From sequence record PQ671644.1: a stretch of 64,000 nucleotides of DNA, one strand, 5' to 3'. Positions 4,511 to 63,894 of this stretch are shown here, in pieces. This DNA comes from Escherichia phage DCP80. The notes beneath the pieces were generated by a model. It saw only the letters and a program-made list of their open reading frames with translations. It was not told the origin of the DNA and ran no database searches. Positions within the stretch are counted from its first letter, which is position 1, and every line of letters begins with the position of its first letter. The translations under genes and the position numbers were made by a program.

Positions 4511-4520
4511 NNNNNNNNNN
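4511..4520. other. N-run (scaffold junction)
   Basis: 10 n; flanking genes (34 fragment vs unrelated minus-strand gene) are not adjacent in T4. Confidence 0.95.
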
Positions 4521-20285: not shown

Positions 20286-20300
20286 NNNNNNNNNNNNNNN
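20286..20300. other. N-run (scaffold junction)
   Basis: 15 n; gp47 N-terminus is replaced by an unrelated holin fragment after the gap. Confidence 0.95.
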
Positions 20301-20383
20301 TTCCCGGTCGCATTATCTTTAAAAATTCTATCAAGAAGTCCAAAAAGTAGGTCTGATAATGAAAATCCTACTTTTGGTTCCAT
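20301..20383 (-). CDS. t: holin t, N-terminal 27 codons (truncated by N-run)
   Basis: MEPKVGFSLSDLLFGLLDRIFKDNATG matches T4 holin N-terminus (..SFSPSDILFGVLDRLFKDNATG); AAGGAG RBS. Confidence 0.75.
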
Positions 20384-20402
20384 ACTTTTCTCCTTTAAAG
20401 AT

Positions 20403-20410
20403 ATTTATAA
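20403..20410 (-). promoter_or_regulatory. late promoter TATAAATA for gene t
   Basis: Exact TATAAATA on the minus strand 20 nt upstream of the t ATG. Confidence 0.6.
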
Positions 20411-20419
20411 TATGGGGTA

Positions 20420-21220: not shown

Positions 21221-21251
21221 AATAAATCCTTAGGGCCCGAAGGCCCTTTTC

Positions 21252-24200
21252 TTAATTTAATTTAGCTTCAAGTTCTCTAACTTTAGCCGACAGGGTTTTA
21301 ACTGCTTCAATTAACAGAGCAACTTGTGCCTGAGTCGAAACTGTCAGAACCATATTTTCCTGCGAATCTAAAGACTCATGCACCGCTTCAGGTAATACTT
21401 CTTTAAGATTCTGAGCAATAACACCTGCTTCAGTTTGAACCGCTTCACCACCGATATATTCAGCTTTATCATAGATTAAACCGTCGAGCTGTTCAACCTT
21501 TTCAAGAGCATTTTCAATAGGCCTGAAGTTTGATTTCAAACGAATGTCAGAACGAATATAAACGTTTGGAGCATTTATATTTTTATATGAGTACAAATCA
21601 CCGTTTTGGAAACGGAAAGTCTGTACGCCATTCGCATATATGTCTAATAATCCATCGCCATTTTGCTTAATACCGGTATCACTATCGCCAATTGTTATAC
21701 TACTTCCACCGAGTGAGTTAGTTGTATTAACACCAAAGGCACTTGTTTGTGGCATCTGTACTTTACCCGGGCAATCTAAAATGCCATCCATTGTAAATCG
21801 CCATCTTGCTTGTTGGCCGTTAGCGTTATCTCCGCGAATACGAATAATACCTTCTCGCCAACCAGCTGTGGTACCAGAGCCGACCCATCCAAATTCAAAG
21901 GTTTGACGATATCCAGAGGAACCATAGTTGCTGTATGCACCTACAATAGGATAATAACTACCTGAATTAGATAAATCACCATGGTCTGCCATAAAGGTGA
22001 TTTTAGATTTCATTGTATCTGAGGTATCTCCCCAACCAGAGGCACCGCGCCAACCTGCAACCACACGAGACGAGATATTGCCTAAACTAGTATTACCACT
22101 GGTGACATTAAGGCCGCCCGCCACGTTCAGACCACCACCAGTAATATTCAGACCACTGCCCATGCCTACACGACCATCAGCCATGTTGATAGAGAAAGGT
22201 CTTAAGCCATTCCACAACCCGTCAGTTGCATTCGGGTTTTCTTCCGTGTTTTTATCCGTAACTAAAATATGAAAATTTTCACCGTCGTTTCTAATCAAAG
22301 CGGCATTAGAACCTATATCATTACCGCTGGATTTGATACGCATACCTTTTTGGTTATTGGTAACGTATTCACCACGTGTAACAATATCCGATTCGCCGGC
22401 AGCAAACATTCCGTCAATGTTGTTCAGCATTCTTACAGATTTACCTACAACATGACCTTCAGGTAATGTTTCTACCAAAGGCTGGACACCGCTATTAATA
22501 CCCACTACGGTTACTTTACTATTGCTACTGCATGTATATTCTACCGCCAAAGAATTAGAATACCCACCTAAGTAAACGTAAATATCATAGGTATCTTCGC
22601 TTGTATTAACAGAAGCAATCTGAGAAATAGCTTCAGAAGTTCTATTCCACAGCGTAGCATTAAGGCCTTTAGGGTTATTATTGCCGGTTCTAAGGACTAT
22701 TTCGGCTATTGAAGCCTGACCATAACTTTTAAAATTAAATCCAGAACCACCTGATATTTTAAAGGATGCTGTACCCGTCGCTTGTGGAATTTCTACAGTA
22801 GCAAATTTATACCAACCTGTAGTAGCGCCGCCAGCCCAACCGCCTGTGTTAACTTTACGGTCTAACGTTGTGTTCAGGTTTTTAAAGTTATCTAATGCAG
22901 TGCTGCCTGTAATATTACCGTCAGGACCAATACGAACATCGGAACCAATTTTAAGTGCCTTGGTTATATCAACAGTATCAGAGTTTAATGCAATACCATG
23001 GGAGTATGTATAGTTATGTAAACGAACAACGTTGCCGCCGTCGCCAATACCGAGATACCATTTTGTAACATCTGCTTTACGTCCTTGGATAAAGTTGGAT
23101 GATGCCTGGGATGAAGCATTTACCACAATGGCATCAGAATCCATATTAACACGCAGTCTACAGTCGGTCTGGACAAATTTACTTACGTTGTCTACTGTAA
23201 AAAGTGGACCATACCCGGCACTTTTATTCCCCATTATAACCGTGCCGGTGGCTAAATTGATAGATAGCGGACGAAGGTCACTTATTCCACCATTTTCTCC
23301 AGCGTTCTGAAGAGTAGGAATAAGATGGAATGAAGCAGAAGAACCTGTTTCTGAACGACGGAAAATCATACCATATTCGGCATTCCAAATTCTTAATGCA
23401 TCAGCGGTACCGCCTATTTTAACTTGACCGTTAAAAGTGGCGCCACCATTTATATTCAATCCGTTTGCTGAAGTGATACTACCTTCCGATGAAATACTAC
23501 CAGCAGTAGTCAATCCACCATTTACACGGAATTGAATAGAACCTACGGTTTGGGAACTTGTGGGAGCAACGCGTTGTGAATAAAAATGCCAACCCTGTCC
23601 ATCGCCTAATTCAAATACAGTTTCTCTGCTTTTATTAGTGTCATCCTCAAATGCGTTACCCCATACTTTCATGGTCACATAGCTTTTGTTCTGACCCGGG
23701 CGGGTGCCTGCGTTCCAAACAATCGTTTTTGTGCCATTGATAGTGGAAGAAGCGCCGAACTTTATACCTTTATTGTTGTTGTTAGTATTAAAAAATAATT
23801 CGTTATCTAATTTAACTGGTTGGGTCGAGGAAACTGTGCCATCGGCTCTAAGATTCAGTTCATTAACCCCGGTTTTAATATTCAAAATACCTGGTTCAAT
23901 AATCATGCCTTCTGCCATAGAAATGGCTACACGACCTGTACCACGGAAATAATGATAAAGTTTACCATTAGAATTATAACCTAAATGGGTTTGGCCATCC
24001 CCAGAGTTATTACCGTCTATTTCGGTTCTAATAGAAACCATAGAAGAGTTCTGGCCAGGCAGAAGCCAAGTAAGACCTTGGTCATTACTACGGCCAAATA
24101 TGGTTTTACTAGTCCCACGGAAGCCGTCGGAAGTAATAGATGCAACGGAATAACCTCCACCAACTAAATCATAAACACCTTGCTTAATATATTTCAGACC

Positions 24201-25004
24201 GGTTACAGTGTCACCGAGAACAAGATACTTATCGCCCATTACACCGACGTTACCATAATCACTAGACGGGAAACCCGTAGTGAATGTACCTAATGCAAGG
24301 CTATTACGGCCTGCCATTCGTCCGTCATTACGAATGCCATATTGTTTAGATGATGGAGTATTACCTGTCCACCATGACATTTCATCAGCTTGACCTGTCT
24401 GGGCGGTGCAAAGCTCATGCCACATAGTGCCACCAGACTTGGCGCGAACTTTACGAAGATAGTTTACACCATTCGTTTCGCCTGTGCCTGGGTATACATA
24501 ATTAACTAATGAATCTGTATCATATACACCAAAGGCTTTGCCACCGTGGATAACTGTATCGACTGCAATGCGTTTAGTTACTAATGAATCTGATGCTAAA
24601 ATACGGTTGGCCTGAAATTCACCACCATTTATAGAACGGAAATAGAATTCACTATTAGCAGTACCTTCTGTCCCCTGTTTAATCCTAATGCGTAATTCAC
24701 CAGCATTTGTAGTTTGAGGACGTGCATATATAACACCGCGTTCACTGCCATCAGCATTTTCAAACCATAAATGGGCATTTGATGTTGTATCGTTTGAAGC
24801 TCTTGAATAAAACGAGCCTTGCAACGCTCTAAAAGTTTGAGCCGAAATACTAGTGCCTGCTGTAATCGACCCGCTTGTAGAAAAGTTTCCAAAATTGTTT
24901 AATGGGCCGTTAATGCGTAAAGTTCCATTAATAGTTACATCCCCGTCAACCTGCCCACCTTTAGCAAAGCCCAAATCAATAATCTGTCCCTGGTCTGACT
25001 TAGT
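21252..25004 (-). CDS. 37: long tail fiber distal subunit gp37, T2-type with C-terminal intramolecular chaperone domain; N-terminal ~40 aa lost in N-run
   Basis: N-terminal region near-identical to T4 gp37 ([24 protein letters not shown]); C-terminus ...[19 protein letters not shown]...[15 protein letters not shown]... resembles self-cleaving intramolecular chaperone domains of tail fibres. Confidence 0.85.
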
Positions 25005-25040
25005 NNNNNNNNNNNNNNNNNNNNNNNNNNNNNNNNNNNN
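25005..25040. other. N-run (scaffold junction)
   Basis: 36 n. Confidence 0.95.
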
Positions 25041-25056
25041 GCGGAAAGGGGGTGTT

Positions 25057-25224
25057 ATGAAAACATTCAAAGATTTTATCAACGAAGATATGGTTGCAGG
25101 TGATGCAGGTGGAAACCCAACTAATATCACAACAGGTACCACTTCCGGGGCAGTTGTCAATAAAGGCCCTGAACAAATCCCATCAAAAAAGCGTAAGAAC
25201 AAAGACGATAAACCTACAGTATAA
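25057..25224 (+). CDS. hypothetical protein (55 aa)
   Basis: ATG at 25057; short ORF upstream of primase followed by a UUCG hairpin at 25228-25241. Confidence 0.4.
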   Translation: MKTFKDFINEDMVAGDAGGNPTNITTGTTSGAVVNKGPEQIPSKKRKNKDDKPTV

Positions 25225-25256
25225 TGGTCCTTCGGGGCCATTGAAATGAGGAAACT

Positions 25257-26285
25257 ATGTCATATATTGATAAAGAATTTGCAGTCAGAGCTTTATCGTA
25301 TCAACCACGTTATAGAGAAGTCACCGGGAGCACATTTAAAGCAAACTGCAGATGTAAAGTTTGTGGCGACTCCCAGAAAGATTCACATAAAGCCAGATTC
25401 TGGGCGTATACTAATCCGGCTGATGGCGCGGTTTACGTGAAATGTTTTAACTGTGACTACTCCACGCATATAAGCAAATACATAAAAGAGTTTGAGCCGG
25501 ATTTGCACCGGGAATATATGGTTGAGAAGTACAAGGAGAACGCCTTCGGGCGACAACGCACTGAAGTTGTCGAAACTCCGAAAGAACCAGAAAAAACTCC
25601 GGTTATCGAACAGCTTGCTTTTTGTGAAAGACTCGATACTTTACCAGAAGCACATCCGATAGTTAAGTATGTAAAAAGTCGATGTATTCCAAGCAATGTT
25701 TGGAACCGGTTATGGTTTACAAACCAATGGCCCGCATTAGTTAACTCCGTCAATCCTGGGACGTATAAGAATGAAACGAATGAACCACGCTTGGTTATTC
25801 CTATCTTCAACGGCAAAAAAGAAATCGAATCTTTCCAAGGACGAGCTCTTCGCAAAGATGCACCACAAAAATATATCACAATCAAAGCTCACCCAGAAGC
25901 TTCCAAAGTCTATGGCGTAGACAAGATTGATGAGCGTAAACGCGTATGGGTAATGGAAGGTCCAATTGATAGTTTGTTTATCCCTAACAGCATTGCGATA
26001 ACTGGTGGCACATTGTCATTGGAAGCAGTTCCTTATGCTGAAACCAGAGTATGGGTAATGGACAACGAGCCAAGACATCCGGATACGATTAAACGTATGA
26101 AGAAGCTCGTTGAAGCTGGCGAAGCTGTTATGTTCTGGGACAATGCACCATGGCATACGAAAGACATAAATGAGATGGTTAAATCAGAAGGGGCAACCCC
26201 TGAACAAATCGAATCATATATGGCCGATAACGTTGCTCAAGGATTGATGGCGAGAATGCGACTTTCGAAGTACGCAAAAGTTTAG
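25257..26285 (+). CDS. 61: DNA primase gp61
   Basis: 342 aa (as T4 gp61); zinc ribbon CxxCGDS...CxNC, LKEFEPDL.REY, EPRLVIPI, FQGRAL.KDAPQKYITI, MAKMRLSKYAK. Confidence 0.93.
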   Translation: MSYIDKEFAVRALSYQPRYREVTGSTFKANCRCKVCGDSQKDSHKARFWAYTNPADGAVYVKCFNCDYSTHISKYIKEFEPDLHREYMVEKYKENAFGRQRTEVVETPKEPEKTPVIEQLAFCERLDTLPEAHPIVKYVKSRCIPSNVWNRLWFTNQWPALVNSVNPGTYKNETNEPRLVIPIFNGKKEIESFQGRALRKDAPQKYITIKAHPEASKVYGVDKIDERKRVWVMEGPIDSLFIPNSIAITGGTLSLEAVPYAETRVWVMDNEPRHPDTIKRMKKLVEAGEAVMFWDNAPWHTKDINEMVKSEGATPEQIESYMADNVAQGLMARMRLSKYAKV

Positions 26286-26393
26286 GAAGGGATTCCGGTA
26301 AAGTAACCGATGATGGAATGAATATGTTCTATTGTGACCTGGGGTAAGTGCACCCCTTGTGTTGCAGCGATAGGCACAACCAGTAAGTTCCAC

Positions 26394-26591
26394 CTATATA
26401 AGGCCGATTAATGCTAGTGAAACATCTACAACTGATTCGAGCGCGACGACTGGCAATATAACACCATGTGCCAATGCAATAGGGGCAACAATGAAATTCC
26501 AGAGTAGAACAAAACAGAGTATCGAAAGGACCAGAATCGTTCGCTTACGACTGCCTTTGATGGCTTGAATTAGACTAGATAGTTTGAGCAT
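26394..26591 (-). CDS. small membrane protein (65 aa), convergent to gene 61
   Basis: AAGGAGG RBS; hydrophobic segments predicted; conserved in duplicate at 59152..59349. Confidence 0.45.
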   Translation of the reverse strand: MLKLSSLIQAIKGSRKRTILVLSILCFVLLWNFIVAPIALAHGVILPVVALESVVDVSLALIGLI

Positions 26592-26613
26592 ACATCCTCC
26601 TTTCTTGTATTTA

Positions 26614-26637
26614 TGCTTTAAACCAATATGATATAAT
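26614..26637 (+). promoter_or_regulatory. middle promoter (MotA box TGCTTTA + -10 TATAAT) for gene 56
   Basis: ATGCTTTA then 11 nt then TATAAT upstream of the gene 56 RBS. Confidence 0.5.
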
Positions 26638-26675
26638 TAACATACAAACAATATGAATTGATAAGGAAAAATATA

Positions 26676-27194
26676 ATGGCTCATTTTAACGAGTGTTCTC
26701 AACTGATTGCTGGTGTTGATAAAGCGCAAGATGCGTATAATGATGTCCTAAAAGGCAATGATGACCCTCTGCAGATTATGCTTGATATGCAGAAATCTTT
26801 GCAGGTTCGTCTGGCTACAGAAAAACCAGAATATAACGCACATCCAGATGAATTGGCAACCGCAGGCGATGTTGTTGCATGGCTTCGTAACCAGAAAGAT
26901 TATGTCGACGACGAATTCCGTGAACTTCTGACTTCGCTCGGTGGCATGTCTAATGGTGAGAAAGCCGCATCCAGTTGCTGGAAGCCGTGGAAAGCGCAAC
27001 ATGCTGAATATCGTAATCGTCGTATTGATGAACTGTCTCCTGAAGACCAGCTCGAAATTAAATTCGAAATGATTGATATTCTGCACTTCGTTCTGAATAT
27101 GTTTCAAGGTCTGGGTCTTTCTGCTGAAGAAATCTTTAAACTGTATTACTTGAAAAATGCCGAGAACTTTGCTCGCCAAGACCGAGGTTATTAA
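26676..27194 (+). CDS. 56: dCTP pyrophosphatase gp56 (MazG-like)
   Basis: Start at MAHFNE (AAGGA RBS); matches T4 gp56 (VDKAQ, DPLQ.MLDMQ, ETAGDVV.W.R.QKD, DDEFRELLTSLG, SPEDQLEIKFE, EEIFKLYYLKN.ENFARQDRGY). Confidence 0.92.
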   Translation: MAHFNECSQLIAGVDKAQDAYNDVLKGNDDPLQIMLDMQKSLQVRLATEKPEYNAHPDELATAGDVVAWLRNQKDYVDDEFRELLTSLGGMSNGEKAASSCWKPWKAQHAEYRNRRIDELSPEDQLEIKFEMIDILHFVLNMFQGLGLSAEEIFKLYYLKNAENFARQDRGY

Positions 27195-27475
27195 TGGCTC
27201 GTTTAAATAAACGTCAACTTAAGAAAGCTCGTAAGAAGCATATTAATGCTATAATTGAAAACGCTAATGTTGAAATCTTTGTAGAACTCTTAGCCAATCA
27301 ACTAAAAAATTTATCTAAACAAGAAATTGATATGAATACTGAAAATGCTAAAAATGTAATCGAAACTCATAATGTTTTTGCTCAAGCTACAGCCGAATAC
27401 ATTGCCAATCCTACTGCTGAAAATCTAGCTAAAATGACTGAAGCCAATAAAGCAGTCCAAGCCGCCAAATTGTAA
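27194..27475 (+). CDS. hypothetical protein (93 aa)
   Basis: ORF overlapping the gene 56 stop (ATG/TAA overlap); helical, basic N-terminus. Confidence 0.5.
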   Translation: MARLNKRQLKKARKKHINAIIENANVEIFVELLANQLKNLSKQEIDMNTENAKNVIETHNVFAQATAEYIANPTAENLAKMTEANKAVQAAKL

Positions 27476-27516
27476 GTTATAAATACACCTGTAATTAAAC
27501 AACAAAGGAGTTTATT

Positions 27517-27750
27517 ATGGGTGGTTTCGTTAATATCAAAACCTTCACGCATCCAGCTGGTGAAGGTAAAGAAGTTAAAGGCGTTGAAGTATCAGTTCCG
27601 TTTGAAATCTATTCGAACGAGCACCGTATTGCTGATGCGCACTATCAGACTTTCCCTTCGGCCGTTGCAGCATATACTACTGTAGTGACTGATGCAGCCG
27701 ATTGGCGAACTAAGAACGCGGCAATGTTTACGCCTACCCCAGTAGTTTAA
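27517..27750 (+). CDS. soc: small outer capsid protein Soc
   Basis: 77 aa; matches T4 Soc (VNIKTF, AHYQTFPS, AAY.TV); AAGGAG RBS. Confidence 0.8.
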   Translation: MGGFVNIKTFTHPAGEGKEVKGVEVSVPFEIYSNEHRIADAHYQTFPSAVAAYTTVVTDAADWRTKNAAMFTPTPVV

Positions 27751-27754
27751 TTAT

Positions 27755-27780
27755 AGGGAACCTTCGGGTTCCCTTTTTTG
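27755..27780 (+). terminator. rho-independent terminator after soc
   Basis: GGGAACC-UUCG-GGUUCCC hairpin followed by UUUUUU. Confidence 0.65.
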
Positions 27781-27827
27781 CTTTTAATAGAGATGGTATA
27801 ATTATTTCAACTACAGAGGAGAATACT

Positions 27828-28025
27828 ATGTTAAACCGTTGGATTAAACCAAATAAAACTTTAGATGAAGTTATTGCCCATGATGTGCATTTTAAGTATG
27901 GTCTGGGTGTGTTTGACGAGGTTGTCGTGCACTCGTTCATGATGCACGATGATGATTCTTTAGAATTCAATATTGAAATCCGTTATGATGATGGTCAAGT
28001 TGAATTTAAACGAGGTTTCCTATGA
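27828..28025 (+). CDS. hypothetical protein (65 aa)
   Basis: ORF with GAGGAG RBS after a -10 TATAAT and CAACTAC leader. Confidence 0.45.
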   Translation: MLNRWIKPNKTLDEVIAHDVHFKYGLGVFDEVVVHSFMMHDDDSLEFNIEIRYDDGQVEFKRGFL

Positions 28026-28381
28026 TTAGTTGGCTCAAGAATTTATTCAAGACTAAACCTGGTGAAGGGGTGGTTCCTGTTAGCCTGCCAGATGTTAAAC
28101 TAAGAGAATATGTTTACATGGGCGATGGTATGATGGAAGAAGTTCGTCGCCGCCCAGAAAAAGCCGGTAATGTCGGACCAGGCGCATTGCCATTGAATTC
28201 GAAAAAGTTAAAAGAGCATCTGGATTCAAGACGTTCTACAAGCCATGTCGATACTACACCGCATATTGATATGACTCCGATTGTGGTTACTGCGGCCGCT
28301 GTCAGTTCGTGGACTGGTGATTCGTCTTATTCCTCCTATGATTCAGGAAGCTGCGATTCATCTTCCAGCTCGTGTGATTAA
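28022..28381 (+). CDS. hypothetical protein (118 aa), Ser/Cys-rich C-terminus
   Basis: ORF overlapping upstream stop; ends in S/C-rich tail. Confidence 0.5.
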   Translation: MISWLKNLFKTKPGEGVVPVSLPDVKLREYVYMGDGMMEEVRRRPEKAGNVGPGALPLNSKKLKEHLDSRRSTSHVDTTPHIDMTPIVVTAAAVSSWTGDSSYSSYDSGSCDSSSSSCD

Positions 28382-28576
28382 ATGAGAATTACAAGTTGGC
28401 TTAAAGATTGGTTGGTTACCCCGGGGATTGATGATTCCTGGGTGGCCAGAGCCGAGGAAGAAATGCAGCGCGAAGCTGAAGAATGGGCCGCCGCAAGCGT
28501 CAAAGATATGCAGGAAAAGAAGACCGAACGAGCTGTGCTTAAACTGATGCGTGATATCTACGGAGATAAATCATGA
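28382..28576 (+). CDS. hypothetical protein (64 aa)
   Basis: ATG directly after the preceding stop; acidic/helical. Confidence 0.45.
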
Positions 28577-28722
28577 CACAAGAAGAAGCTGAACGTCAGG
28601 CAAAAGAAGCACTGGATTTGCTTTTGAAAATTGGCAGTAAAATGATGGAAGAAAATGAAAAGTACATCAAGGAAAATAAAGTTCCTGATGGTCCATTAGT
28701 TGGTAAGAGGAAAACATTATGA
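28573..28722 (+). CDS. hypothetical small protein (49 aa)
   Basis: Short ORF read from sequence ([17 protein letters not shown]...); fills the gap between neighbours with start/stop overlaps; below ORF-track cutoff. Confidence 0.3.
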
Positions 28723-29207
28723 AAGTATATGAATTAGAATTCTATGTCCGTGATTCTGCTGGGCAAACACGACCTTACGATGCAACAGCCTGTCTTATCT
28801 TTGCATATAATGGCATGGATTCGGTTACTGAGTTGGAAACAAAATTAATGAACCTGACGATGCCAGAAAATGTCATGATGAAGGTATTTCATAACAAAAA
28901 CGTTAATGTGGCTGAAGGGTGTCCGTTTACTGTTTCCGAAGCTCTACACATTAAAGGCTATCGTCACCCGGACCCTTATGCAGAAGGTACTGCGGATATC
29001 TTCTATAAAGATACCGATAGAATTTCAGAAGAACGCCTTAAAGGTCGCACATATCTGATTTCCACTACCGACGACCTTGCTGAAGTTGAACGTCAGATTT
29101 GGAAGCACTTTGATATCGGTCTGCGCTTTACTTTAACAGAAGAAGCTATTCAAGATACTAAAATGCGTGCTCGTATGTATGGTTACGGTCCGATTGGTGG
29201 TTACTAA
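28719..29207 (+). CDS. hypothetical protein (162 aa; mrh position and size)
   Basis: T4 has mrh (161 aa) downstream of soc; assignment by position and length only. Confidence 0.45.
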
Positions 29208-29383
29208 TGGATTTATTTGAACTTTTTGAAGAGCCTAAAGCTCCCACAGAAGCCCGTGTGGACCTAGTTGACGAACTTGATGCGATTATACAGAAGCACG
29301 GTTTTAGTCTCCCATTGGAAGTTCTGCGCGACCTGGCCTCATATTACGACGACCCACCTCCATGGGCACCATGGAAACAGTAG
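29207..29383 (+). CDS. hypothetical small protein (58 aa)
   Basis: Short ORF ([13 protein letters not shown]...) with start overlapping upstream stop; below ORF-track cutoff. Confidence 0.3.
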   Translation: MDLFELFEEPKAPTEARVDLVDELDAIIQKHGFSLPLEVLRDLASYYDDPPPWAPWKQ

Positions 29384-29439
29384 TTTACTTACTCCCCTCC
29401 TAATGACATAATGACCTTTCTTACAACAGAGAGGTCATT

Positions 29440-29505
29440 ATGAACATCATCAAATCTGATACCGAACCCAACCAGTTAAAATTTAGTGAAATGGAGATAG
29501 CTTCA
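29440..29505 (+). CDS. hypothetical protein, N-terminal 22 codons (truncated by N-run)
   Basis: ATG 29440 with GAGAGG RBS embedded in a 10-bp inverted repeat. Confidence 0.35.
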
Positions 29506-29540
29506 NNNNNNNNNNNNNNNNNNNNNNNNNNNNNNNNNNN
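29506..29540. other. N-run (scaffold junction)
   Basis: 35 n. Confidence 0.95.
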
Positions 29541-29756
29541 ACTGAAGGCACAAGCCCCGGTGGCCAAGGTTCAAGTCAATCAGCAGGCCCTTCTAATGGT
29601 TCTGCACATGCATCACATTCTCAAGGTATAGAGAATATTAAATCCAGCTATGTAAATACCACTCACGGTAAAGCACAGGAAGCATGGGCGAAAGGTAGAG
29701 TAGTTACTGATTCTGTTTTCTGTCATATGCCAAAATATGTTGGTTGTAAGAAATAA
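29541..29756 (+). CDS. hypothetical protein, C-terminal 71 codons
   Basis: Stop-free frame from the gap to TAA at 29754 (..SAHASHSQGIENIK..CHMPKYVGCKK); may be the same gene as the 29440 fragment. Confidence 0.5.
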   Translation, partial: TEGTSPGGQGSSQSAGPSNGSAHASHSQGIENIKSSYVNTTHGKAQEAWAKGRVVTDSVFCHMPKYVGCKK

Positions 29757-29761
29757 TCTAA

Positions 29762-29783
29762 GGACCCTTCGGGGTCCTTTTTT
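29762..29783 (+). terminator. rho-independent terminator
   Basis: GGACCC-UUCG-GGGUCC followed by UUUUUU. Confidence 0.65.
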
Positions 29784-29796
29784 ATTTTAAAAAGTA

Positions 29797-29826
29797 GTGT
29801 ACAACCAGATGGTCATAAGACATAAT
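29797..29826 (+). promoter_or_regulatory. T4-type early promoter
   Basis: GTGTAC-18nt-CATAAT then GATTCCATACTGAGTTACC leader and GGAG RBS. Confidence 0.55.
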
Positions 29827-29867
29827 GATTCCATACTGAGTTACCAAATAAACAAACGGAGAATAAA

Positions 29868-30074
29868 ATGTTAGAATTAATCAAAGCTGCTGGTGAAAAA
29901 GGTCTGATGGTTAACACTCGTGACCCTGAGCAACGTCAAGCATTTGGTGAGTTAAAAGCCAAAGGTCTGGTTAAAGCATCCCTTGGTATTGGTAATGCTT
30001 TGCGTGTGACTTTGACCCCTGCAGGTAAAGCAATGTTCTTCCCTAAACCATTACCAAAACGTCGTCGCAAGTGA
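29868..30074 (+). CDS. hypothetical protein (68 aa), basic C-terminal tail
   Basis: ORF with GGAG RBS; ends KPLPKRRRK. Confidence 0.5.
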   Translation: MLELIKAAGEKGLMVNTRDPEQRQAFGELKAKGLVKASLGIGNALRVTLTPAGKAMFFPKPLPKRRRK

Positions 30075-30080
30075 GGAATT

Positions 30081-30383
30081 ATGAAGAAGTATGAACTTGA
30101 CATGATTGAGGCATGTCTGAAATCTGCTGACCATTTTAAGTTGAAAATGCACAAGTTAAGAGGAATGGTCAAAACTCCAGAAGAGAAGAAGCGATATGCT
30201 CTTAAGGAGAAATGTAAAGCTCTTATCATGATGGATAAGCTGCAAATGGTCGCCGCAGAAGCTCACAGGACACGTAAAGCCGAGGCCCTTGGTGTTTATA
30301 TGGCAGAGCAGCTTCATCGTGCACAGCAAGCCGTTAAGAGCGTCTGGTTCAGCGGTGAAAATACTGAAAGAACTTTTAATTAA
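30081..30383 (+). CDS. hypothetical protein (100 aa)
   Basis: ORF with GAGGAA RBS; helical, Lys-rich. Confidence 0.5.
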   Translation: MKKYELDMIEACLKSADHFKLKMHKLRGMVKTPEEKKRYALKEKCKALIMMDKLQMVAAEAHRTRKAEALGVYMAEQLHRAQQAVKSVWFSGENTERTFN

Positions 30384-30385
30384 AT

Positions 30386-30415
30386 GTGTACATAGTATGG
30401 GGATAGACGTATAAT
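30386..30415 (+). promoter_or_regulatory. T4-type early promoter
   Basis: GTGTAC-18nt-TATAAT then GTTCCCATACTGAGTTACC leader. Confidence 0.55.
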
Positions 30416-30451
30416 GTTCCCATACTGAGTTACCAAATACTGGAGAATAAA

Positions 30452-30976
30452 ATGGACGCAAAATCAATCTTTAATCTGATTAATTACAATAATGGTAATT
30501 TTAAATCAGAAGCGCAAAGCAAGTTCTTTAATGATGTTGCTTGTGCAGGTGAGATTACAGTATCAGGTGGTCAGACTTATAAAAACGCCTGGAACTGGAT
30601 TGTGACTGTTGATTCAGTTGGTATTGTTGATGTGTATAAAAACACCAACAAAAACCGCTCTTTGTTCTGGTCAAGAGAGACTAATGCAGAATATCAAGCG
30701 ACAAGAGCGAAGAAAAATATGCCTACTGAATCTGATGTACAAAACATCAAATCAGATATCCAATATTATGATGGTCTGATTGCTGAACAACAAGCGGTGC
30801 TTGATAAGTTCAATGAAATCAAGGCGTGTAAAGAGATTCCTGAATTCATGAGGGAATCAGTTAATGAACAATACAATCTCACTTCAGAGCGTATTGAAAC
30901 CTATACCAAACAAAGAGCAGAGCGCCAGGTACTCCTTCAGAAGTTTGAAGAGCGTTTAAAGACGGTTCTCGCATAA
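30452..30976 (+). CDS. hypothetical protein (174 aa)
   Basis: ORF with GGAG RBS; no family recognised. Confidence 0.55.
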   Translation: MDAKSIFNLINYNNGNFKSEAQSKFFNDVACAGEITVSGGQTYKNAWNWIVTVDSVGIVDVYKNTNKNRSLFWSRETNAEYQATRAKKNMPTESDVQNIKSDIQYYDGLIAEQQAVLDKFNEIKACKEIPEFMRESVNEQYNLTSERIETYTKQRAERQVLLQKFEERLKTVLA

Positions 30977-30978
30977 AC

Positions 30979-31002
30979 GCTTTATACCAAGGATGGTATA
31001 AT
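30979..31002 (+). promoter_or_regulatory. putative middle promoter (MotA-box-like GCTTTA + TATAAT)
   Basis: GCTTTA then 12 nt then TATAAT; shares CCAAGGATGG with the promoter at 32984. Confidence 0.45.
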
Positions 31003-31039
31003 GGTTCTGACCTTTGATTAATCTATTGAGGAAATTATT

Positions 31040-31882
31040 ATGTCACAAGCAATTAATGAAATTCGTTCTGAAGTTAAAAAAGTTATTAAATTTGGTCGTA
31101 TTCCAAGCACTAAAGATGTGGTTGAAAAGGTTCTATATATGATGTGGGACAAGTTCAATGTTTGTACTGTTAAAAATGACTTCACTAAAATCTTTGACAA
31201 GACTAAAGGTTCGTTTACATTAGAAGACCGAGTCATGAAAACTCTTCGTAAAACAGGTATGTTGTCTCGTGCTAATGCCAAAATTATTCTTAAAAAATAT
31301 AACAAAGGCTACGACCTTTATGGTCGTGCGATTAACACCATGACGTTTGATGAAGTGGTTAAAGACCTTCATGCCAACCAACGACGTTTACTAGCACTAG
31401 GTGCTCGCCTTGCAAAAGGTCAAGATAAACAAATGACCTTTAAAACCAATAATTCTTTAGATTATAAAGTATTCAATGTTATTAAAGGTCAAAATGAAGG
31501 CGAATACAGTATTTCTTCTTTTAGTGGTTGTCAATATGACAACTGGAAGTTCCATCTCCGATTGGCCTTGTCTGAATTAGAACAGCACGGTGTTCTTAGT
31601 TTTGGTGATGCCGAAACTGGAGCAGGTCAGCGTATTAAACTTTATAAAATTAAAGACCTGGCTGAAGACTCTTCAGAACAAGCTCCTAAAATGGAACCTG
31701 TTCCAGTGCGAAGCAATGAAAAATATTCAGAGCAAATTGAGCTTTTCACTAAACAGATTGAAGAGCTTAACATCACCATCCAGCAGCAAGATGATGAAAT
31801 TTTCCGCCTGTCAGGACTGAACGGCGCGGCAAAAGCTGAACGTCAGAAACTGATGGACGTTATTAAATTGCTTAAGGCTTAA
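31040..31882 (+). CDS. hypothetical protein (280 aa), coiled-coil C-terminus
   Basis: ORF with GAGGAA RBS; C-terminal heptad-like region. Confidence 0.55.
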   Translation: MSQAINEIRSEVKKVIKFGRIPSTKDVVEKVLYMMWDKFNVCTVKNDFTKIFDKTKGSFTLEDRVMKTLRKTGMLSRANAKIILKKYNKGYDLYGRAINTMTFDEVVKDLHANQRRLLALGARLAKGQDKQMTFKTNNSLDYKVFNVIKGQNEGEYSISSFSGCQYDNWKFHLRLALSELEQHGVLSFGDAETGAGQRIKLYKIKDLAEDSSEQAPKMEPVPVRSNEKYSEQIELFTKQIEELNITIQQQDDEIFRLSGLNGAAKAERQKLMDVIKLLKA

Positions 31883-31883
31883 T

Positions 31884-32099
31884 ATGACCATTTTGATTAT
31901 CAGTATTATTTTTGGTTATCTTGTGACGGGTTTTATTACTACCCTGTTGCTTCACAAGTTTGATAGTCCCTACGAAAGTGGGGACGAGTATGATGCGGTG
32001 TTCACAACATTTTGCTGGCCTATATTCTGGGTAGTCGCTGTTATAATGTGTGTGACCTGGCCTTTTGCTAAACTCTATGAAAAATTATTTGGACTATGA
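31884..32099 (+). CDS. small membrane protein (71 aa)
   Basis: Two hydrophobic helices (ILIISIIFGYLVTGFITTLLL; WPIFWVVAVIMCVTW). Confidence 0.5.
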   Translation: MTILIISIIFGYLVTGFITTLLLHKFDSPYESGDEYDAVFTTFCWPIFWVVAVIMCVTWPFAKLYEKLFGL

Positions 32100-32100
32100 T

Positions 32101-32982
32101 ATGAACATTAAAACACGTAAAGAATATTCTCGATTTGAACAGCGTGAAGGACGTGCAACCCGTCTTATCGCGATGAATTCTCTGGTTAACTTTGGCAAAA
32201 TCAAATCAGGTTCTGCCACCCAGGGGTATGGACAACGTATTGTAAGAATTAACTCTCTGAATGATTACTGCCGCCGCCCGGCGTTTTTGTTTGGTGCCAC
32301 AGTTCGTAAGAGCATCAAGGAAATCCTGGCCGCTGGACTTCGTATTCGTAAAGCTCCAGTTAACATCAAGAACTATAATTTTACCTCCAGTAACTTGATT
32401 ATCAATATCAAGAATGATGGTGTGCAGATTAAGTTCAAGCCAACCACCAAGGGTGATGTTGCTCTTTGTGATACCTTTAAAGAGGTTATGGGTATTGCGC
32501 TGTTTTATATGCGCCATGCTGTTGAAGCATACACGTTTGAAGAAGATACAAATTATATCCACCAAACGGAAAAATTCCTTAAAACTATAACCATTGATAT
32601 TAAATTGACTAAAGAATATCTTTTGTCTTACGCTCCTTATCAGGAGAAAAAGGAACCAGAAATGACAGAACGTATCCCTACCGCATCATATGGCCCAGCA
32701 TTTGCAGGTCAGTTTAAATCTTACGACCAGGCTAAAATTTCACCGTTGGACGTTAAAAACATGTACAAATGGAAAGTTCAACCATCCAGCTCTCTTGAAA
32801 TCTTTAACCCACCAATGAAGCCTATTGAGAGCTATCATGCTGATGCTATCCAGGAATCAGTCAACCGCTTAAATGGTCTGATTGAAGATGAGAAAAAGGG
32901 TATCCAGGATGTTCTGAATCGCATCAAGAACATGGAAACACAACGCAATAAATTGCAGGCGGCGATTTTAGCATTAAAATAA
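32101..32982 (+). CDS. hypothetical protein (293 aa)
   Basis: ATG 1 nt after upstream stop; track ORF starts earlier at 32065 in overlap. Confidence 0.55.
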   Translation: MNIKTRKEYSRFEQREGRATRLIAMNSLVNFGKIKSGSATQGYGQRIVRINSLNDYCRRPAFLFGATVRKSIKEILAAGLRIRKAPVNIKNYNFTSSNLIINIKNDGVQIKFKPTTKGDVALCDTFKEVMGIALFYMRHAVEAYTFEEDTNYIHQTEKFLKTITIDIKLTKEYLLSYAPYQEKKEPEMTERIPTASYGPAFAGQFKSYDQAKISPLDVKNMYKWKVQPSSSLEIFNPPMKPIESYHADAIQESVNRLNGLIEDEKKGIQDVLNRIKNMETQRNKLQAAILALK

Positions 32983-32983
32983 T

Positions 32984-33013
32984 GTTTACTTCCAAGGATG
33001 GAGGGAGTATAAT
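32984..33013 (+). promoter_or_regulatory. T4-type early promoter (consensus GTTTAC / TATAAT)
   Basis: GTTTAC-18nt-TATAAT followed by GAGGAG RBS. Confidence 0.55.
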
Positions 33014-60561: not shown

Positions 60562-60691
60562 GCGGACGAACGTTTGGAACGAGCTATCAAACAAGAAGCT
60601 ATTGCCAAACGAGCATTGATGAAGTCTCTTTATCTCTGCCTTCATGTCATTAATGCGCTGGAAGCTATTCGGTTTTATGTTTCATTTGCGT
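60562..60691 (+). CDS. nrdB: ribonucleotide reductase beta subunit NrdB, exon 1 (3' part only)
   Basis: Frame ...LYLCLHVINALEAIRFYVSFA aligns with the conserved R2 helix (E. coli ..LSLFLCGLMAEAIRFYVSFAC..); exon ends at U60691. Confidence 0.8.
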
Positions 60692-61000
60692 AAATTGCGC
60701 CTTTAAGTGGTAACACTTATCGAAAACTCCTTTAATTGCTGGAAAATCCGGAAACGGAAAACTAGCAGCCAAGGTTTTGCTTGCGCCTTTAATTAGTATC
60801 ATATTATAAATATGATTATACTTTTAAGAGGATGCACAATTGCAAAACAAGGTTCAACGACTAGTCTTCGGACGTAGGGCCAAGCGGCTCGAAATGGGGA
60901 GAATCCTTCTGGGATTGTGATATAGTCTGGTCTGCATGGTAACATGCAGCAGTTCATAAGAGAACGGGATAAGAAATAGCGAGCTTATTCGAACATAACG
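60692..61000 (+). ncRNA. group I self-splicing intron in nrdB (309 nt, no homing-endonuclease ORF)
   Basis: Interrupts the conserved FYVSFA|C..MEGNAK region exactly where a Cys codon is reconstituted (U + GU); exon U before 5' splice site, intron ends in G; P1-like pairing UUGCGU/GCGC; catalytic-core-like segments (UCAACGACUAGUC ... AUAGUCUGG); T4 nrdB is known to carry a group I intron. Confidence 0.7.
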
Positions 61001-61529: not shown

Positions 61530-61940
61530 ATGAAACAAATCGCTGACGAATACAGTTTTATAAAATACGCGGAGTTAGAGTTAGTCGATGGTAAAATCCC
61601 TATTCTTACTCTCGCAAACAAGAAAAATGTTATCTATGCTATTTCAGTTGATGATGAACTAGTGTATATTGGTAAGACGAACAACCTTAAGAAGCGTATC
61701 AACTATTACCGGACTGCAATTAACCGAATCGAACAGACGAGTGATTCAAACAAATCCCGGATGATACATGAAGCTTTACAAGAAGGTAAAAAGGTGGTAT
61801 TCTATGCACGACAATGTTTCAATCTGTCAATGACCAATGAACTTGGCACAATGTCAGTCGAAACGATGTCTCTAGAAGAGCCGATGTTCATCAAGCTTTT
61901 TAATCCCCCGTGGAATTACCAACATAAGGTGAAGAAATGA
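61530..61940 (+). CDS. denA: endonuclease II (DenA, GIY-YIG family)
   Basis: Start at ATG 61530 (track starts at TTG 61524); MKQIADEYSFIKY...VIYAISVDDELVYIGKTNNLKKRINYYRTAINR...FYARQCFNLSMTNELGT matches T4 EndoII. Confidence 0.9.
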   Translation: MKQIADEYSFIKYAELELVDGKIPILTLANKKNVIYAISVDDELVYIGKTNNLKKRINYYRTAINRIEQTSDSNKSRMIHEALQEGKKVVFYARQCFNLSMTNELGTMSVETMSLEEPMFIKLFNPPWNYQHKVKK

Positions 61941-63073
61941 TTGAATTATATGATAACTTAATGAAGCTTTGCGCCGAATCCGATAAAGGTAAGTTTTTCT
62001 ATACGGATTTTGTTTCTCCATTTGAAACCAAGTTCCGCATCTTTAGCTATAACTATGCTTCCTATAGTGATTGGCTTCTTGATGACGCACTGGAGTGCCG
62101 CGGCATTATGTTTGAAATGGATGACAATGGTCCAGTTCGCATTGCTGCCCGTCCTATGGAAAAATTCTTTAATCTGGGTGAGAACCCAATGACCATGGAC
62201 CTTAACCTTGATGAGGTTGTCCTGGTTACTGCAAAAGCTGATGGTAGCTTGGTTTCTACTTATATGGACCAGACTAATATTGCTTTTAAATCCAAAGGGT
62301 CAATCAAAAGCTCCCAGGCTGCTGAATCTCTGCAGGTGTTTAAACAACCGCACCGTGAAGCGTTCAGGGCTCGCGTAACTGAAATCACTGAAGCTGGTTA
62401 TACATGCAATATGGAATATGTTGCACCAACCAACCGCATTGTTTTGCCTTACCAGGAACGTGACCTGATTTTACTGAACGTTCGTCATAATGAAACTGGC
62501 GAATATATCCCATACCAGGAACTGTTCAAAGATGCTGCACTCCGTCCTTTCCTGGTTGAAGCATATGACCTGGTGAGCATTGAGAATGTTCGTGGCATGA
62601 AAGAGATTGAAGGCTTCGTCTACGAGCTGGCAAGTGGTCAGAAGTTCAAGCTGAAAACAGAATGGTATTGTGCTCTGCACCATACTAAAGACTCCATTAA
62701 TAATAATGAGCGTTTGTTTGAAGTTGTTGTTGCCGGCGGGGCTGATGATGTTATTGCCATGTTTACTGGTGATGATTATGCTCGCGAAAAAGTTAATGCC
62801 TTTACCATTGTACATCTGGATTATCTGTCCAATACGCTGGGATTGTTGCTTGACGCCCAGAAACAACTGGCAGGAAAAGACCGTCGCGAGTTTGCGATTA
62901 AAGGTCAAGAGTTGTGTAAACCGTACCCGGGATTGTTCTCCGTATTAATGAACACCTATCAACGCCCCCAGGAAACCGAACAAACGATTGCTCAAATCAA
63001 TAAAGTTTTCCTTAAAAATCATAAACTTTACATTCCGTCGGACTACCAAGCGGAAGTAATCCTTCCTGAATAA
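61937..63073 (+). CDS. rnlA: RNA ligase 1 (gp63; also tail-fiber attachment)
   Basis: 378 aa; matches T4 Rnl1 (FRIFSYNYASYSDWLL.DALECRGIMFEMD, PMEKFFNL.ENP, EDGSLVSTY with active-site Lys in TAKADG/TKEDG region, FKSKGSIKS, APTNRIVL.YQE, LLNVR.NETGEYI). Confidence 0.92.
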   Translation: MIELYDNLMKLCAESDKGKFFYTDFVSPFETKFRIFSYNYASYSDWLLDDALECRGIMFEMDDNGPVRIAARPMEKFFNLGENPMTMDLNLDEVVLVTAKADGSLVSTYMDQTNIAFKSKGSIKSSQAAESLQVFKQPHREAFRARVTEITEAGYTCNMEYVAPTNRIVLPYQERDLILLNVRHNETGEYIPYQELFKDAALRPFLVEAYDLVSIENVRGMKEIEGFVYELASGQKFKLKTEWYCALHHTKDSINNNERLFEVVVAGGADDVIAMFTGDDYAREKVNAFTIVHLDYLSNTLGLLLDAQKQLAGKDRREFAIKGQELCKPYPGLFSVLMNTYQRPQETEQTIAQINKVFLKNHKLYIPSDYQAEVILPE

Positions 63074-63082
63074 TAAAAAGGG

Positions 63083-63112
63083 GTGTACAAGCCCCTTCTT
63101 TCTATACATAAT
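63083..63112 (+). promoter_or_regulatory. T4-type early promoter
   Basis: GTGTAC-18nt-CATAAT then GGTTCCATCAACTACTGATGAGGA; -35 lies in the loop of the post-63 hairpin. Confidence 0.5.
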
Positions 63113-63143
63113 GGTTCCATCAACTACTGATGAGGACTAAAAC

Positions 63144-63377
63144 ATGTTAAACTTAATTACAAATGAAAGAGTTACACAGGCATATGGTGACAGAAATGAT
63201 GGAATCTATGTCTACAAGGGAGACCGCCGGATTGGTTTCATTACTGACCTGAAGGCCAAATTGTTAAAAGAATTGAAAGCTCAAACAGGTGATTCTGGGT
63301 TTAGAGCAAGAGCCAAAAAGAAAGATGAACGCCTGGGTGCCAACTCTTTTGGTCCTAGAGGTTACAACCGCTACTAA
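63144..63377 (+). CDS. hypothetical protein (77 aa), N-terminal paralog of the following gene
   Basis: ATG after GAGGA RBS; residues 6-42 about 65% identical to the N-terminus of 63391..63894. Confidence 0.5.
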   Translation: MLNLITNERVTQAYGDRNDGIYVYKGDRRIGFITDLKAKLLKELKAQTGDSGFRARAKKKDERLGANSFGPRGYNRY

Positions 63378-63390
63378 TGAGGAAAATATT

Positions 63391-63894
63391 ATGAATATGC
63401 AACTGATTTCAAATGAAATGATTGTTGATGTATATGGTGACCGCCATGACGGAATCTATGTTTATAAAGGTTCCAAAAATGTTGGGTTCCTTACTGACTT
63501 AAGAAAGAAACTGGCGTCTGATAATAAGTTGAAGGCGAAACAAAAAGAATATCGTGATAAGAAATCAGAAGAGCGGAAAGAAGCACTGCATGAATCTGTT
63601 CCTGAAATGGTTGACTTCTTAAAGAACCATTTGGTTAAATATGATGCAGAAGTGTTCATCAATCAGACCCAACCTAATGTGCATATCAATGGATGTGTTT
63701 GTTATGTTGTGGTTGAACCCCTGACACTTCAACACCGCCTGGGAATTAAACACCCAGTGTTAACCCAGGATGATATGGCGGATGAAGTTGGTAATCAGTT
63801 CCGCATTTCAGCATCTGACAGTACAAATCACATCCTCCTGAATGGTTTATCCCAGGATGATATTGTTGAGGTAATCATCAAGTTATGCAAATAA
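63391..63894 (+). CDS. alc: Alc-like protein (by position after gene 63 and length 167 aa)
   Basis: ATG 63391 with GAGGA RBS, 13 nt after upstream stop; T4 alc follows gene 63 and encodes 167 aa; no sequence recall to confirm. Confidence 0.5.
   Translation: MNMQLISNEMIVDVYGDRHDGIYVYKGSKNVGFLTDLRKKLASDNKLKAKQKEYRDKKSEERKEALHESVPEMVDFLKNHLVKYDAEVFINQTQPNVHINGCVCYVVVEPLTLQHRLGIKHPVLTQDDMADEVGNQFRISASDSTNHILLNGLSQDDIVEVIIKLCK

What the first reader, a model, noticed from the sequence alone, without database searches (positions are those of the whole stretch)
63083..63894. Small early gene that duplicates the N-terminus of the Alc-position protein
The 77-aa ORF with its own early promoter shares a 37-residue block (YGDR.DGIYVYKG...GF.TDL.KKL) with the start of the following 167-aa protein, which occupies the alc position after gene 63. 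A truncated paralog of a host transcription-shutoff factor could act as a decoy or modulator.
Basis: partly seen in the sequence, partly recalled or inferred. Interest (0 to 1): 0.4.

Follow-up and report, generated by a model that had tools for sequence, protein, structure and literature searches.

The report
Small upstream paralog of phage Alc
A T4-like phage carries, just ahead of its host-transcription shutoff gene alc, a small, conserved gene that copies only Alc's N-terminal module and adds its own basic tail; databases already list it as "alcb", but nobody has studied what it does.

Summary
ORF 63144-63377 (77 aa) and ORF 63391-63894 (167 aa) share 47% identity over 62 residues (E=7e-18). 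The 167-aa protein is Alc (Pfam PF17527, E=1e-50) and lies directly after rnlA (gene 63). The window is a Gaprivervirus (SP18/VR7 group).

The pair is not new. SP18's 2010 GenBank record names the genes alcb and alca, and PHROG 17715 is a 77-residue family for the small protein.

New here:
- The small gene is intact in 15/15 genomes checked, with dN/dS 0.10, the same as alc.
- Three divergent uncultured lineages (45-58% identity) have the same rnlA-small gene layout; alc is seen after it in two, and the third contig ends there.
- All copies share a basic tail ending R-x-G-x-N-[ST]-F-G-P-x3-N-[KR]-[FY], which Alc lacks.
- AlphaFold gives both proteins the same N-terminal module. The small protein lacks Alc's acidic C-terminal domain.
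- The upstream promoter corresponds in position and sequence to T4's alc upstream region, and the gap to alc is 13 nt, so the two genes probably form one operon.

It is a selected gene, not a remnant. My best inference, untested, is that it uses Alc's N-terminal module to bind Alc's partner, probably RNA polymerase, and modulates or supplements shutoff. Interest is modest.

The parts
61937..63073 (+). rnlA (gene 63, RNA ligase 1); the upstream neighbour that fixes the alc position
   Evidence: Pfam T4_Rnl1_C E=7.4e-42 and RNA_lig_T4_1 E=2.1e-23; PHROG 562 E=2e-137
63078..63097 (+). Terminator-like GC hairpin followed by a T-run, just after the rnlA stop; it overlaps the -35 element
   Evidence: Scan. 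The hairpin is invariant in 14 of 15 Gaprivervirus sequences, one having a single base change in the stem. I saw no comparable GC hairpin in the upstream sequences of the divergent lineages
63084..63112 (+). Early-promoter-like site TGTACA-17-CATAAT, at the position of the promoter-like site upstream of T4 alc
   Evidence: 9/12 match. T4 has GTTTAC-17-TATAGT at the same place upstream of alc. GTTTAC(A) plus a TAnnAT-type -10 element follows the rnlA stop in L016, L018, L019, L020, L021 and L022
63113..63138 (+). Predicted leader hairpin pairing the 5' end of the presumed transcript with the Shine-Dalgarno sequence (GAGGA, 63132-63136) of the small gene
   Evidence: MFE -9.3 kcal/mol, z=-3.2 against shuffles. 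Analogous hairpins occur in L016 (-12.2, z -4.8) and L019 (-10.5, z -4.5) and are weak in T4, L018, L021 and L022. RNAalifold found no consensus structure
63144..63377 (+). alcB-type gene, 77 aa, a paralog of the Alc N-terminal module (stop codon included)
   Evidence: PHROG 17715 matches 1-77/77, E=1.6e-53. Intact in 15/15 genomes, dN/dS 0.10
63144..63284 (+). Residues 1-47: the N-terminal module shared with Alc (helix 7-14, beta-hairpin 22-32, start of the long helix)
   Evidence: AlphaFold model, blocks 11-40 at pLDDT 90-92. The elements match those of Alc. The residues invariant across Alc and the small paralogs are kept: I5 G15 D19 G20 I21 G31, with D35 and L36 nearly invariant
63285..63374 (+). 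Residues 48-77: basic Gly/aromatic tail ending in R-x-G-x-N-[ST]-F-G-P-x3-N-[KR]-[FY]; absent from Alc
   Evidence: The motif is shared by four lineages at 45-58% overall identity. No nonsynonymous change in the last 14 codons among 15 Gapriverviruses, despite dS 0.35. Tail charge +3.5 to +4.8. Tail pLDDT about 51
63379..63383 (+). Shine-Dalgarno GAGGA of alc, 1 nt after the small gene's stop codon; the gap between the two genes is 13 nt
   Evidence: Read directly from the sequence. The layout TGAGGAA..ATG is conserved in all lineages
63391..63894 (+). alc, 167 aa, host-transcription shutoff factor
   Evidence: Pfam ALC E=1.4e-50 over the full length. 55% identical to T4-type Alc. AlphaFold pLDDT 93.3: N-terminal module, helix 34-80, alpha/beta domain 87-166

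Best explanation
The 77-aa gene is a real, selected protein-coding gene of the type SP18's record calls alcb. It is the first cistron of a two-gene early operon: promoter, leader, small gene, alc. It arose from an ancient partial tandem duplication of alc. Its product keeps Alc's N-terminal module (short helix, beta-hairpin, first ~20 residues of the long helix). In place of Alc's acidic C-terminal alpha/beta domain it has a ~30-residue basic tail with a conserved C-terminal motif. These points are shown here: the paralogy, conservation, purifying selection, shared fold, shared promoter region and tail motif. The rest is inferred. Because the N-terminal module is what selection preserves, the small protein most likely binds the same partner as Alc's N-terminal module. 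The best candidate is host RNA polymerase, since genetics in the literature implicates dispensable region I of the beta subunit for Alc. Made at the same time as Alc, it would then tune or supplement host-transcription shutoff. It could do so either by competing with Alc for the docking site or by bringing its own basic tail to that site.
For: Paralogy: 47% identity over 62 aa, E=7e-18, and Pfam ALC above cut-off for both proteins. A full-length match to a dedicated 77-residue family, PHROG 17715, E=1.6e-53. Selection: intact in 15/15 sequences, with variable sites by codon position 5/1/17 and dN/dS 0.10, against 0.106 for alc. Age: paralog nucleotide identity is about 57%, third-position identity 0.31-0.46, and the longest exact run is 8-11 nt, so there has been no recent gene conversion. 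The same rnlA-small gene layout is found in divergent uncultured relatives. In L016 the small protein is 45% identical while Alc is 79% and RnlA 56%. L019 and L020 also show alc after the small gene; in L018 the contig ends just after an ATG that follows the small gene. The tail motif is conserved across all four lineages. The N-terminal module has the same predicted secondary-structure elements in both proteins, and the residues invariant across the family are retained. The promoter-like site and leader correspond to the region upstream of T4 alc, and the intergenic gap is 10-13 nt with a Shine-Dalgarno sequence at the stop codon. The link between Alc and the RNA polymerase beta subunit comes from the literature (PMC2988021, read).
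Against: No binding partner of Alc's N-terminal module is known. The cited review states that Alc's mechanism is unknown. The invariant residues shared by the two proteins (Gly, Asp, Ile, Leu) could be structural rather than an interface. The small paralog evolves faster than Alc (45% against 79% between the same two lineages), which could mean that its target differs or is changing. There are no expression or interaction data. The promoter scan alone is not above chance. The family is confined to one narrow clade, so it is dispensable for Alc function in general: T4, L021 and L022 lack it.
Confidence: 0.45

Rival explanations
1. The small protein binds Alc itself, through the N-terminal module and long helix, in the manner of a microProtein. 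It would form mixed complexes that restrain or assemble Alc, rather than binding Alc's target.
For: It keeps the N-terminal module and the first ~20 residues of Alc's 47-residue helix. It is made from the same transcript immediately before Alc. It is strongly basic (pI ~10, net charge +6 to +7.5), whereas Alc's C-terminal domain is acidic (pI 5.1, net charge -4.9), so an electrostatic interaction is conceivable.
Against: Nothing shows that Alc oligomerises. The middle of the helix is highly charged (KLKAKQKEYRDKKSEERKE), which by my reading looks more like a single stable helix than a coiled-coil interface. No multimer prediction was possible with these tools.
Confidence: 0.2
2. Subfunctionalisation: the small protein has an activity of its own, carried by the basic Gly/aromatic tail, and does not act through Alc or compete with it. 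One candidate is nucleic-acid or nucleoid binding. From my own knowledge rather than any paper read here, T4 alc is also the unf (nucleoid-unfolding) gene.
For: The tail is the most distinctive conserved feature. It has no nonsynonymous change among 15 Gapriverviruses despite dS 0.35, and its motif is conserved across lineages. It is basic, with Gly, Phe, Trp and Arg typical of nucleic-acid-binding tails. The N-terminal module diverges faster than Alc's.
Against: The tail alone finds only the Gaprivervirus small proteins plus hits that look like noise (E 2-9) among cultured phages, so there is no precedent to lean on. The strict linkage to alc suggests functional coupling. The tail is modelled at low confidence.
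Confidence: 0.2
3. It is a non-functional remnant of a duplicated alc, or merely a leader ORF whose translation matters for alc expression while its sequence does not.
For: It is short, lacks the C-terminal domain, sits 13 nt upstream of alc with the alc Shine-Dalgarno sequence at its stop codon, and is absent from most Alc-encoding phages. One metagenomic variant, P0002, is frameshifted after residue 55.
Against: dN/dS is 0.10, with 17 of 23 variable sites at third codon positions. Length stays at 77-78 aa across lineages as far apart as 45% identity, and these lineages share a C-terminal motif encoded by different codons. The N-terminal module is predicted with confidence.
Confidence: 0.05

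Closest known systems
T4 Alc (Pfam PF17527, PHROG 1253): terminates host transcription on cytosine-containing DNA
   Same: The first ~60 residues are homologous: 54.5% identity to T4 Alc residues 2-56 and 47% to the neighbouring Alc. The predicted N-terminal module is the same. The locus after rnlA and the promoter-like region and leader are the same.
   Different: It lacks residues ~64-167 of Alc: the rest of the long helix and the alpha/beta domain carrying the invariant Q-P-N-V block. It has a basic tail motif that Alc does not. Its pI is ~10 against 6.15 for Alc.
SP18 alcb (ADO19581), VR7 ORF243c (ADR32618), PHROG 17715
   Same: This is the same gene. SP18's region is 99.1% identical in DNA, and its copy sits at the same position, with the GenBank note 'similar to N-terminal region of bacteriophage JS98 Alc'. 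The window protein matches the 77-residue PHROG profile end to end.
   Different: Nothing structural differs. None of the papers I searched discusses this gene or assigns it a function. The label 'inhibitor of host transcription' is carried over from Alc by similarity.
microProteins and truncated dominant-negative paralogs (a concept recalled from my own knowledge, e.g. the Tn5 inhibitor protein and plant LITTLE ZIPPER or ID proteins)
   Same: It is a small single-module protein homologous to one module of a larger multi-module protein, and it appears to be expressed together with that protein.
   Different: No interaction or titration has been shown. Unlike typical microProteins, it has an added conserved tail, which suggests a function of its own.
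T4 MotA (an N-terminal domain that binds RNA polymerase sigma, plus a C-terminal 'double-wing' DNA-binding domain)
   Different: The scores are marginal (Foldseek E ~0.02). A profile search shows no sequence signal. Alc's C-terminal domain is acidic. The review read says Alc does not appear to bind DNA or RNA.

Membership tests
Alc family (Pfam PF17527) | Significant match to the ALC profile above the curated cut-off | tested here: met
   The 77-aa protein scores 41.5 bits against a 25-bit cut-off, E=1.4e-10. The 167-aa protein scores 171.8 bits.
Alc family (Pfam PF17527) | Full-length architecture: N-terminal module, long helix, and C-terminal alpha/beta domain with the invariant Q-P-N-V block | tested here: not met
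   The 77-aa protein covers only profile positions 3-62 of 177. Its model has no C-terminal domain. The 167-aa neighbour meets this feature.
Alc family (Pfam PF17527) | Gene located directly downstream of rnlA (gene 63), behind an early-type promoter | tested here: met
   The small gene takes the first position, and alc follows 13 nt later.
Alc family (Pfam PF17527) | Terminates RNA polymerase elongation on cytosine DNA but not on modified DNA, and depends on dispensable region I of the beta subunit | not testable with these tools
   This is a biochemical property, known only for T4 Alc (literature; PMC2988021).
alcB-type small Alc paralogs (PHROG 17715) | End-to-end match to the 77-residue family profile | tested here: met
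   Residues 1-77 match profile positions 1-77 of 77, E=1.6e-53.
alcB-type small Alc paralogs (PHROG 17715) | Position between rnlA and a full-length alc | tested here: met
   Met in the window, SP18, ten further phage records and the uncultured contigs L016, L019 and L020. In L018 the contig ends just after the small gene.
alcB-type small Alc paralogs (PHROG 17715) | C-terminal motif R-x-G-x-N-[ST]-F-G-P-x3-N-[KR]-[FY] (a feature proposed here) | tested here: met
   Window: RLGANSFGPRGYNRY. L016: RLGRNSFGPDGLNKF. L018: RGQANTFGPNGENKF. L019: RHGANSFGPGTENKF.
microProtein-like modulators | A small protein consisting of one module of a larger multi-module relative | tested here: met
microProtein-like modulators | Binds the larger relative or its partner and alters its activity | not testable with these tools
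   This needs interaction assays or a multimer structure prediction. Neither was available.

The most novel reading that the evidence does not exclude
The small paralog is an adaptation tied to this clade's unusual DNA chemistry. Gapriverviruses keep alc, denB and dCTPase but lack the dCMP hydroxymethylase gene 42. Two papers report this (PMC12115623 and PMC8056088), and SP18 has no gene 42 annotated between uvsX and imm, where I recall T4 carrying it. The small protein could retune or restrain Alc at RNA polymerase so that a phage without hydroxymethylcytosine can still use Alc without shutting off its own genes. That would make it a natural tool for separating Alc's docking function from its modification-sensing function.
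Probability: 0.08. Interest if true: 0.7.

Novelty: already known. Interest (0 to 1): 0.3.

Why it matters
Alc's mechanism has stayed unknown since its description as a termination factor in 1993: how does a 167-residue protein make RNA polymerase terminate only on unmodified cytosine DNA? The 2010 review read here still calls the mechanism unknown, and my searches of the held paper library and the PDB found no later mechanistic or structural work. A naturally occurring, selected, stand-alone copy of Alc's N-terminal module splits Alc into two testable halves. It also gives a ready reagent for asking what the N-terminal module binds. The gene is catalogued but unstudied, so the value here is a sharper hypothesis rather than a discovery. 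The new elements are the conserved tail motif, the operon layout, the modular fold, and the restriction to a clade that lacks the hydroxymethylcytosine pathway.

Tried and rejected
1. Recent gene conversion between the two copies. Rejected: nucleotide identity is ~57% in every genome, the longest exact run is 8-11 nt, and third-position identity is 0.31-0.46.
2. Programmed frameshift fusing the small ORF to alc. The alc frame is open for 37-38 codons upstream in the window, VR7, L019 and L020, but for only 7 codons in L016, so this is not conserved. That open stretch explains the over-long Alc annotations of 188-201 aa.
3. Pseudogene or pure leader ORF. Rejected on dN/dS and the conserved tail.
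4. Searching with the tail alone for relatives in cultured phages. Only the small proteins themselves appeared, at E 2-9, alongside hits that look like noise.
5. PADLOC and NCBIfam gave no hits. PDB sequence searches with the single sequence and with a profile found nothing relevant.
6. A BFVD fold search with the small-protein model found only Alc-family proteins.
7. RNAalifold on the leader sequences gave no consensus structure, probably because the hairpin registers differ between sequences. Folds of single sequences are reported instead.
8. Literature searches for any study of alcb, for Alc domain mapping or for an Alc structure found none. Drivdahl & Kutter 1990 is not held in the library. 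One search was wasted on 'alcohol' hits.
9. Large Bacteroidetes-type repeat proteins hit by the exhaustive HMMER search (P0004-P0006, P0009, P0010). I treated these as summed scores from a repeated hairpin-like motif, not as homologs, and did not pursue them.

Full report
OBSERVATION. The two ORFs are as described: 63144-63377 (77 aa) and 63391-63894 (167 aa), both on the + strand. BLASTP between them gives 29/62 identities (47%), E=7e-18. Both proteins pass the Pfam ALC (PF17527) cut-off. The small one covers only profile positions 3-62 of 177 (41.5 bits). The large one covers the whole profile (171.8 bits, E=1.4e-50). The preceding genes are denA (GIY-YIG) and rnlA/gene 63 (named). The 167-aa protein is therefore Alc at the canonical position, 55% identical to T4-type Alc.

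SOURCE AND PRIOR KNOWLEDGE. The region is 94.5-99.7% identical in DNA to 33 phage records of the genus Gaprivervirus (SP18, VR7, VR20, VR25, VR26, P896 and others). The arrangement is already annotated. SP18's GenBank record GQ981382 names the genes alcb ('similar to N-terminal region of bacteriophage JS98 Alc') and alca. VR7 lists ORF243c as 'similar to T4 Alc'. RefSeq labels both 'inhibitor of host transcription'. PHROG 17715 is a 77-residue family that the window protein matches end to end (E=1.6e-53). No paper I could search discusses the small gene.

IS IT A REAL GENE? The ORF is intact at 77 aa in all 15 sequences examined: the window, 11 GenBank records and 3 IMG/VR contigs that appear to duplicate VR20, VR25 and VR26. 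tblastn covers at least 80% of it in 34 phage records. Variable sites fall 5/1/17 by codon position, and dN/dS is 0.10, the same as alc at 0.106. The last 14 codons have no nonsynonymous change despite dS 0.35. The two copies are old. Nucleotide identity is ~57% in every genome, third-position identity is 0.31-0.46, and the longest exact run is 8-11 nt, so there has been no recent gene conversion.

WIDER DISTRIBUTION.
- A word-indexed search of 5.8 billion proteins found only the Gaprivervirus cluster and one frameshifted variant.
- An exhaustive HMMER search and a profile search then found divergent small paralogs: P0003 (78 aa, 45% identity) and P0012 (78 aa, 50% identity).
- Tracing Alc homologs of 78% identity found two more small paralogs, on contigs L019 and L020.
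- In every case the small gene follows rnlA. Alc follows it in L016, L019 and L020. In L018 the contig ends just after an ATG that follows the small gene.
- Between the window and L016, Alc is 79% identical, RnlA 56% and the small protein 45%. The duplication therefore predates these lineages, and the small copy evolves faster.
- Lineages whose Alc is 62-64% identical (L021, L022) go straight from rnlA to alc, as does T4.
- All small paralogs share a tail that Alc lacks: a Gly/aromatic/basic stretch ending R-x-G-x-N-[ST]-F-G-P-x3-N-[KR]-[FY], encoded by different codons in different lineages.
- This protein-level conservation rules out a decaying remnant.

EXPRESSION SIGNALS. Right after the rnlA stop there is a terminator-like hairpin (63078-63097) that overlaps a promoter-like site, TGTACA-17-CATAAT (63084-63112). 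T4 has GTTTAC-17-TATAGT at the same place upstream of alc. All related lineages have GTTTAC(A) plus a TAnnAT-type -10 element there, followed by a similar leader and a GAGGA Shine-Dalgarno sequence. The small gene therefore sits between what looks like alc's own promoter and alc. Alc starts 10-13 nt after the small gene's stop, with its Shine-Dalgarno sequence at that stop (TGAGGAA). No promoter-like or terminator-like site on the + strand lies between the genes. The most economical reading is one early operon. In the window, L016 and L019 the leader is predicted to fold into a stable hairpin that sequesters the first Shine-Dalgarno sequence (dG -9.3 to -12.2, z -3.2 to -4.8). This hairpin is weak in L018 and in the lineages without the small gene. 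RNAalifold did not recover a consensus structure, so this remains a lead.

MECHANISM. Shown: this is a selected, co-located, probably co-transcribed paralog consisting of Alc's N-terminal module plus a tail motif of its own. Inferred: since selection preserves the N-terminal module, the protein most likely binds what Alc's N-terminal module binds. The best candidate is host RNA polymerase. Mutations in dispensable region I of the beta subunit block Alc action, although Alc's mechanism is otherwise unknown (PMC2988021). It would then modulate or supplement shutoff, by competing for the site or by acting there with a different effector tail (confidence 0.45). Three rivals remain:
- It binds Alc itself, microProtein-style (0.2).
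- It has a separate, tail-driven function such as nucleic-acid or nucleoid binding (0.2).
- It is a remnant or leader ORF (0.05, largely refuted).

CONTEXT THAT MAY MATTER. Two papers report that Gapriverviruses have alc, denA, denB and dCTPase but no dCMP hydroxymethylase (PMC12115623 and PMC8056088). In SP18 the interval between uvsX and imm, where I recall T4 carrying gene 42, holds only two small hypothetical ORFs. The cultured phages with the small paralog all belong to this genus, so a link between the small gene and a different DNA modification is possible. That link is untested, and the co-occurrence may simply reflect shared ancestry.

VERDICT. The feature is already catalogued but functionally unstudied, so its interest is modest.

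Noticed in passing
window 1-64000; N-runs ending at 4520, 9800, 15080, 20300, 25040, 29540, 37940, 42080, 46160, 50000, 53720, 57140, 60560 and 63980: The window is broken by 14 N-runs of 10-58 bases, each ending on a multiple of 20. Segment 57141-60514 (primase, dCTPase) maps about 45 kb away, and on the opposite strand, from segment 60561-63922 in phage P896. The window is therefore not colinear with reference genomes. The finding lies wholly within one segment.
   Followed up: partly
window 60666-60949 (+): A group I intron (Rfam RF00028, 74.1 bits, E=3e-18) interrupts nrdB. SP18's nrdB is an uninterrupted 1179-nt CDS, so intron presence varies within the genus.
   Followed up: partly
[not shown]
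   Followed up: partly
window 63426-63525 (alc codons ~12-45) and the same stretch in L004, L006, L008-L013: Among Gapriverviruses, the N-terminal module of alc occurs as two sharply different haplotypes. They differ by about 9 amino acids and many synonymous sites within ~100 nt, while the rest of alc is nearly identical. dS is 0.42 in the first 63 codons against 0.07 in the remainder. This looks like a recombined mosaic patch in the module that the small gene duplicates. It does not come from the small copy.
   Followed up: partly
window 63113-63138 (+); L016 1019-1042; L019 2726-2751: A predicted leader hairpin pairs the start of the presumed transcript with the Shine-Dalgarno sequence of the first cistron. 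The sequences downstream of AGG differ between lineages, and the 5' arms differ to match (GGT/ACT, GTT/AAC, GA/TC). It is stable in three lineages that have the small gene. It is weak in L018 and in T4, L021 and L022.
   Followed up: partly
window 63277-63390 (alc reading frame upstream of the ATG at 63391): The alc frame stays open for 38 codons upstream and overlaps the 3' end of the small gene. This has led several records and gene callers to annotate Alc as 188-201 aa. The frame is closed in L016, so the extension is probably an annotation artefact.
   Followed up: yes
P0008 (63 aa) and A0A3S7GSC5 of Escherichia phage vB_EcoM-G28 (63 aa): Two 63-aa proteins look like truncated alc genes. 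P0008 reads as T4 Alc for about 48 residues and then diverges, as a frameshift would produce. The G28 protein was seen only as a short fold-search hit. Neither shows the tail motif where I could read the sequence. They may be natural or laboratory alc-defective alleles, or sequencing errors, and they are distinct from the alcB-type gene.
   Followed up: no
P0004, P0005, P0006 and P0010 (645-1414 aa): The exhaustive HMMER search with the 77-aa protein also hit long repeat proteins, three of which have units such as TNNGDGTYTYVNERGVSVIIDVPADV that resemble the Alc hairpin (NDGIYVYKGDRRIGFITDL). E-values run from 1e-12 to 1e-5, summed over 6-12 repeats. This is probably a convergent hairpin motif, but I did not examine it.
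   Followed up: no
L025 (SP18 19000-33000), locus coordinates 4131-4788: In SP18, only two small hypothetical ORFs lie between uvsX and imm, where I recall T4 carrying beta-gt and gene 42 (dCMP hydroxymethylase). This agrees with published statements that Gapriverviruses lack the hydroxymethylcytosine pathway while keeping alc, denB and dCTPase.
   Followed up: partly
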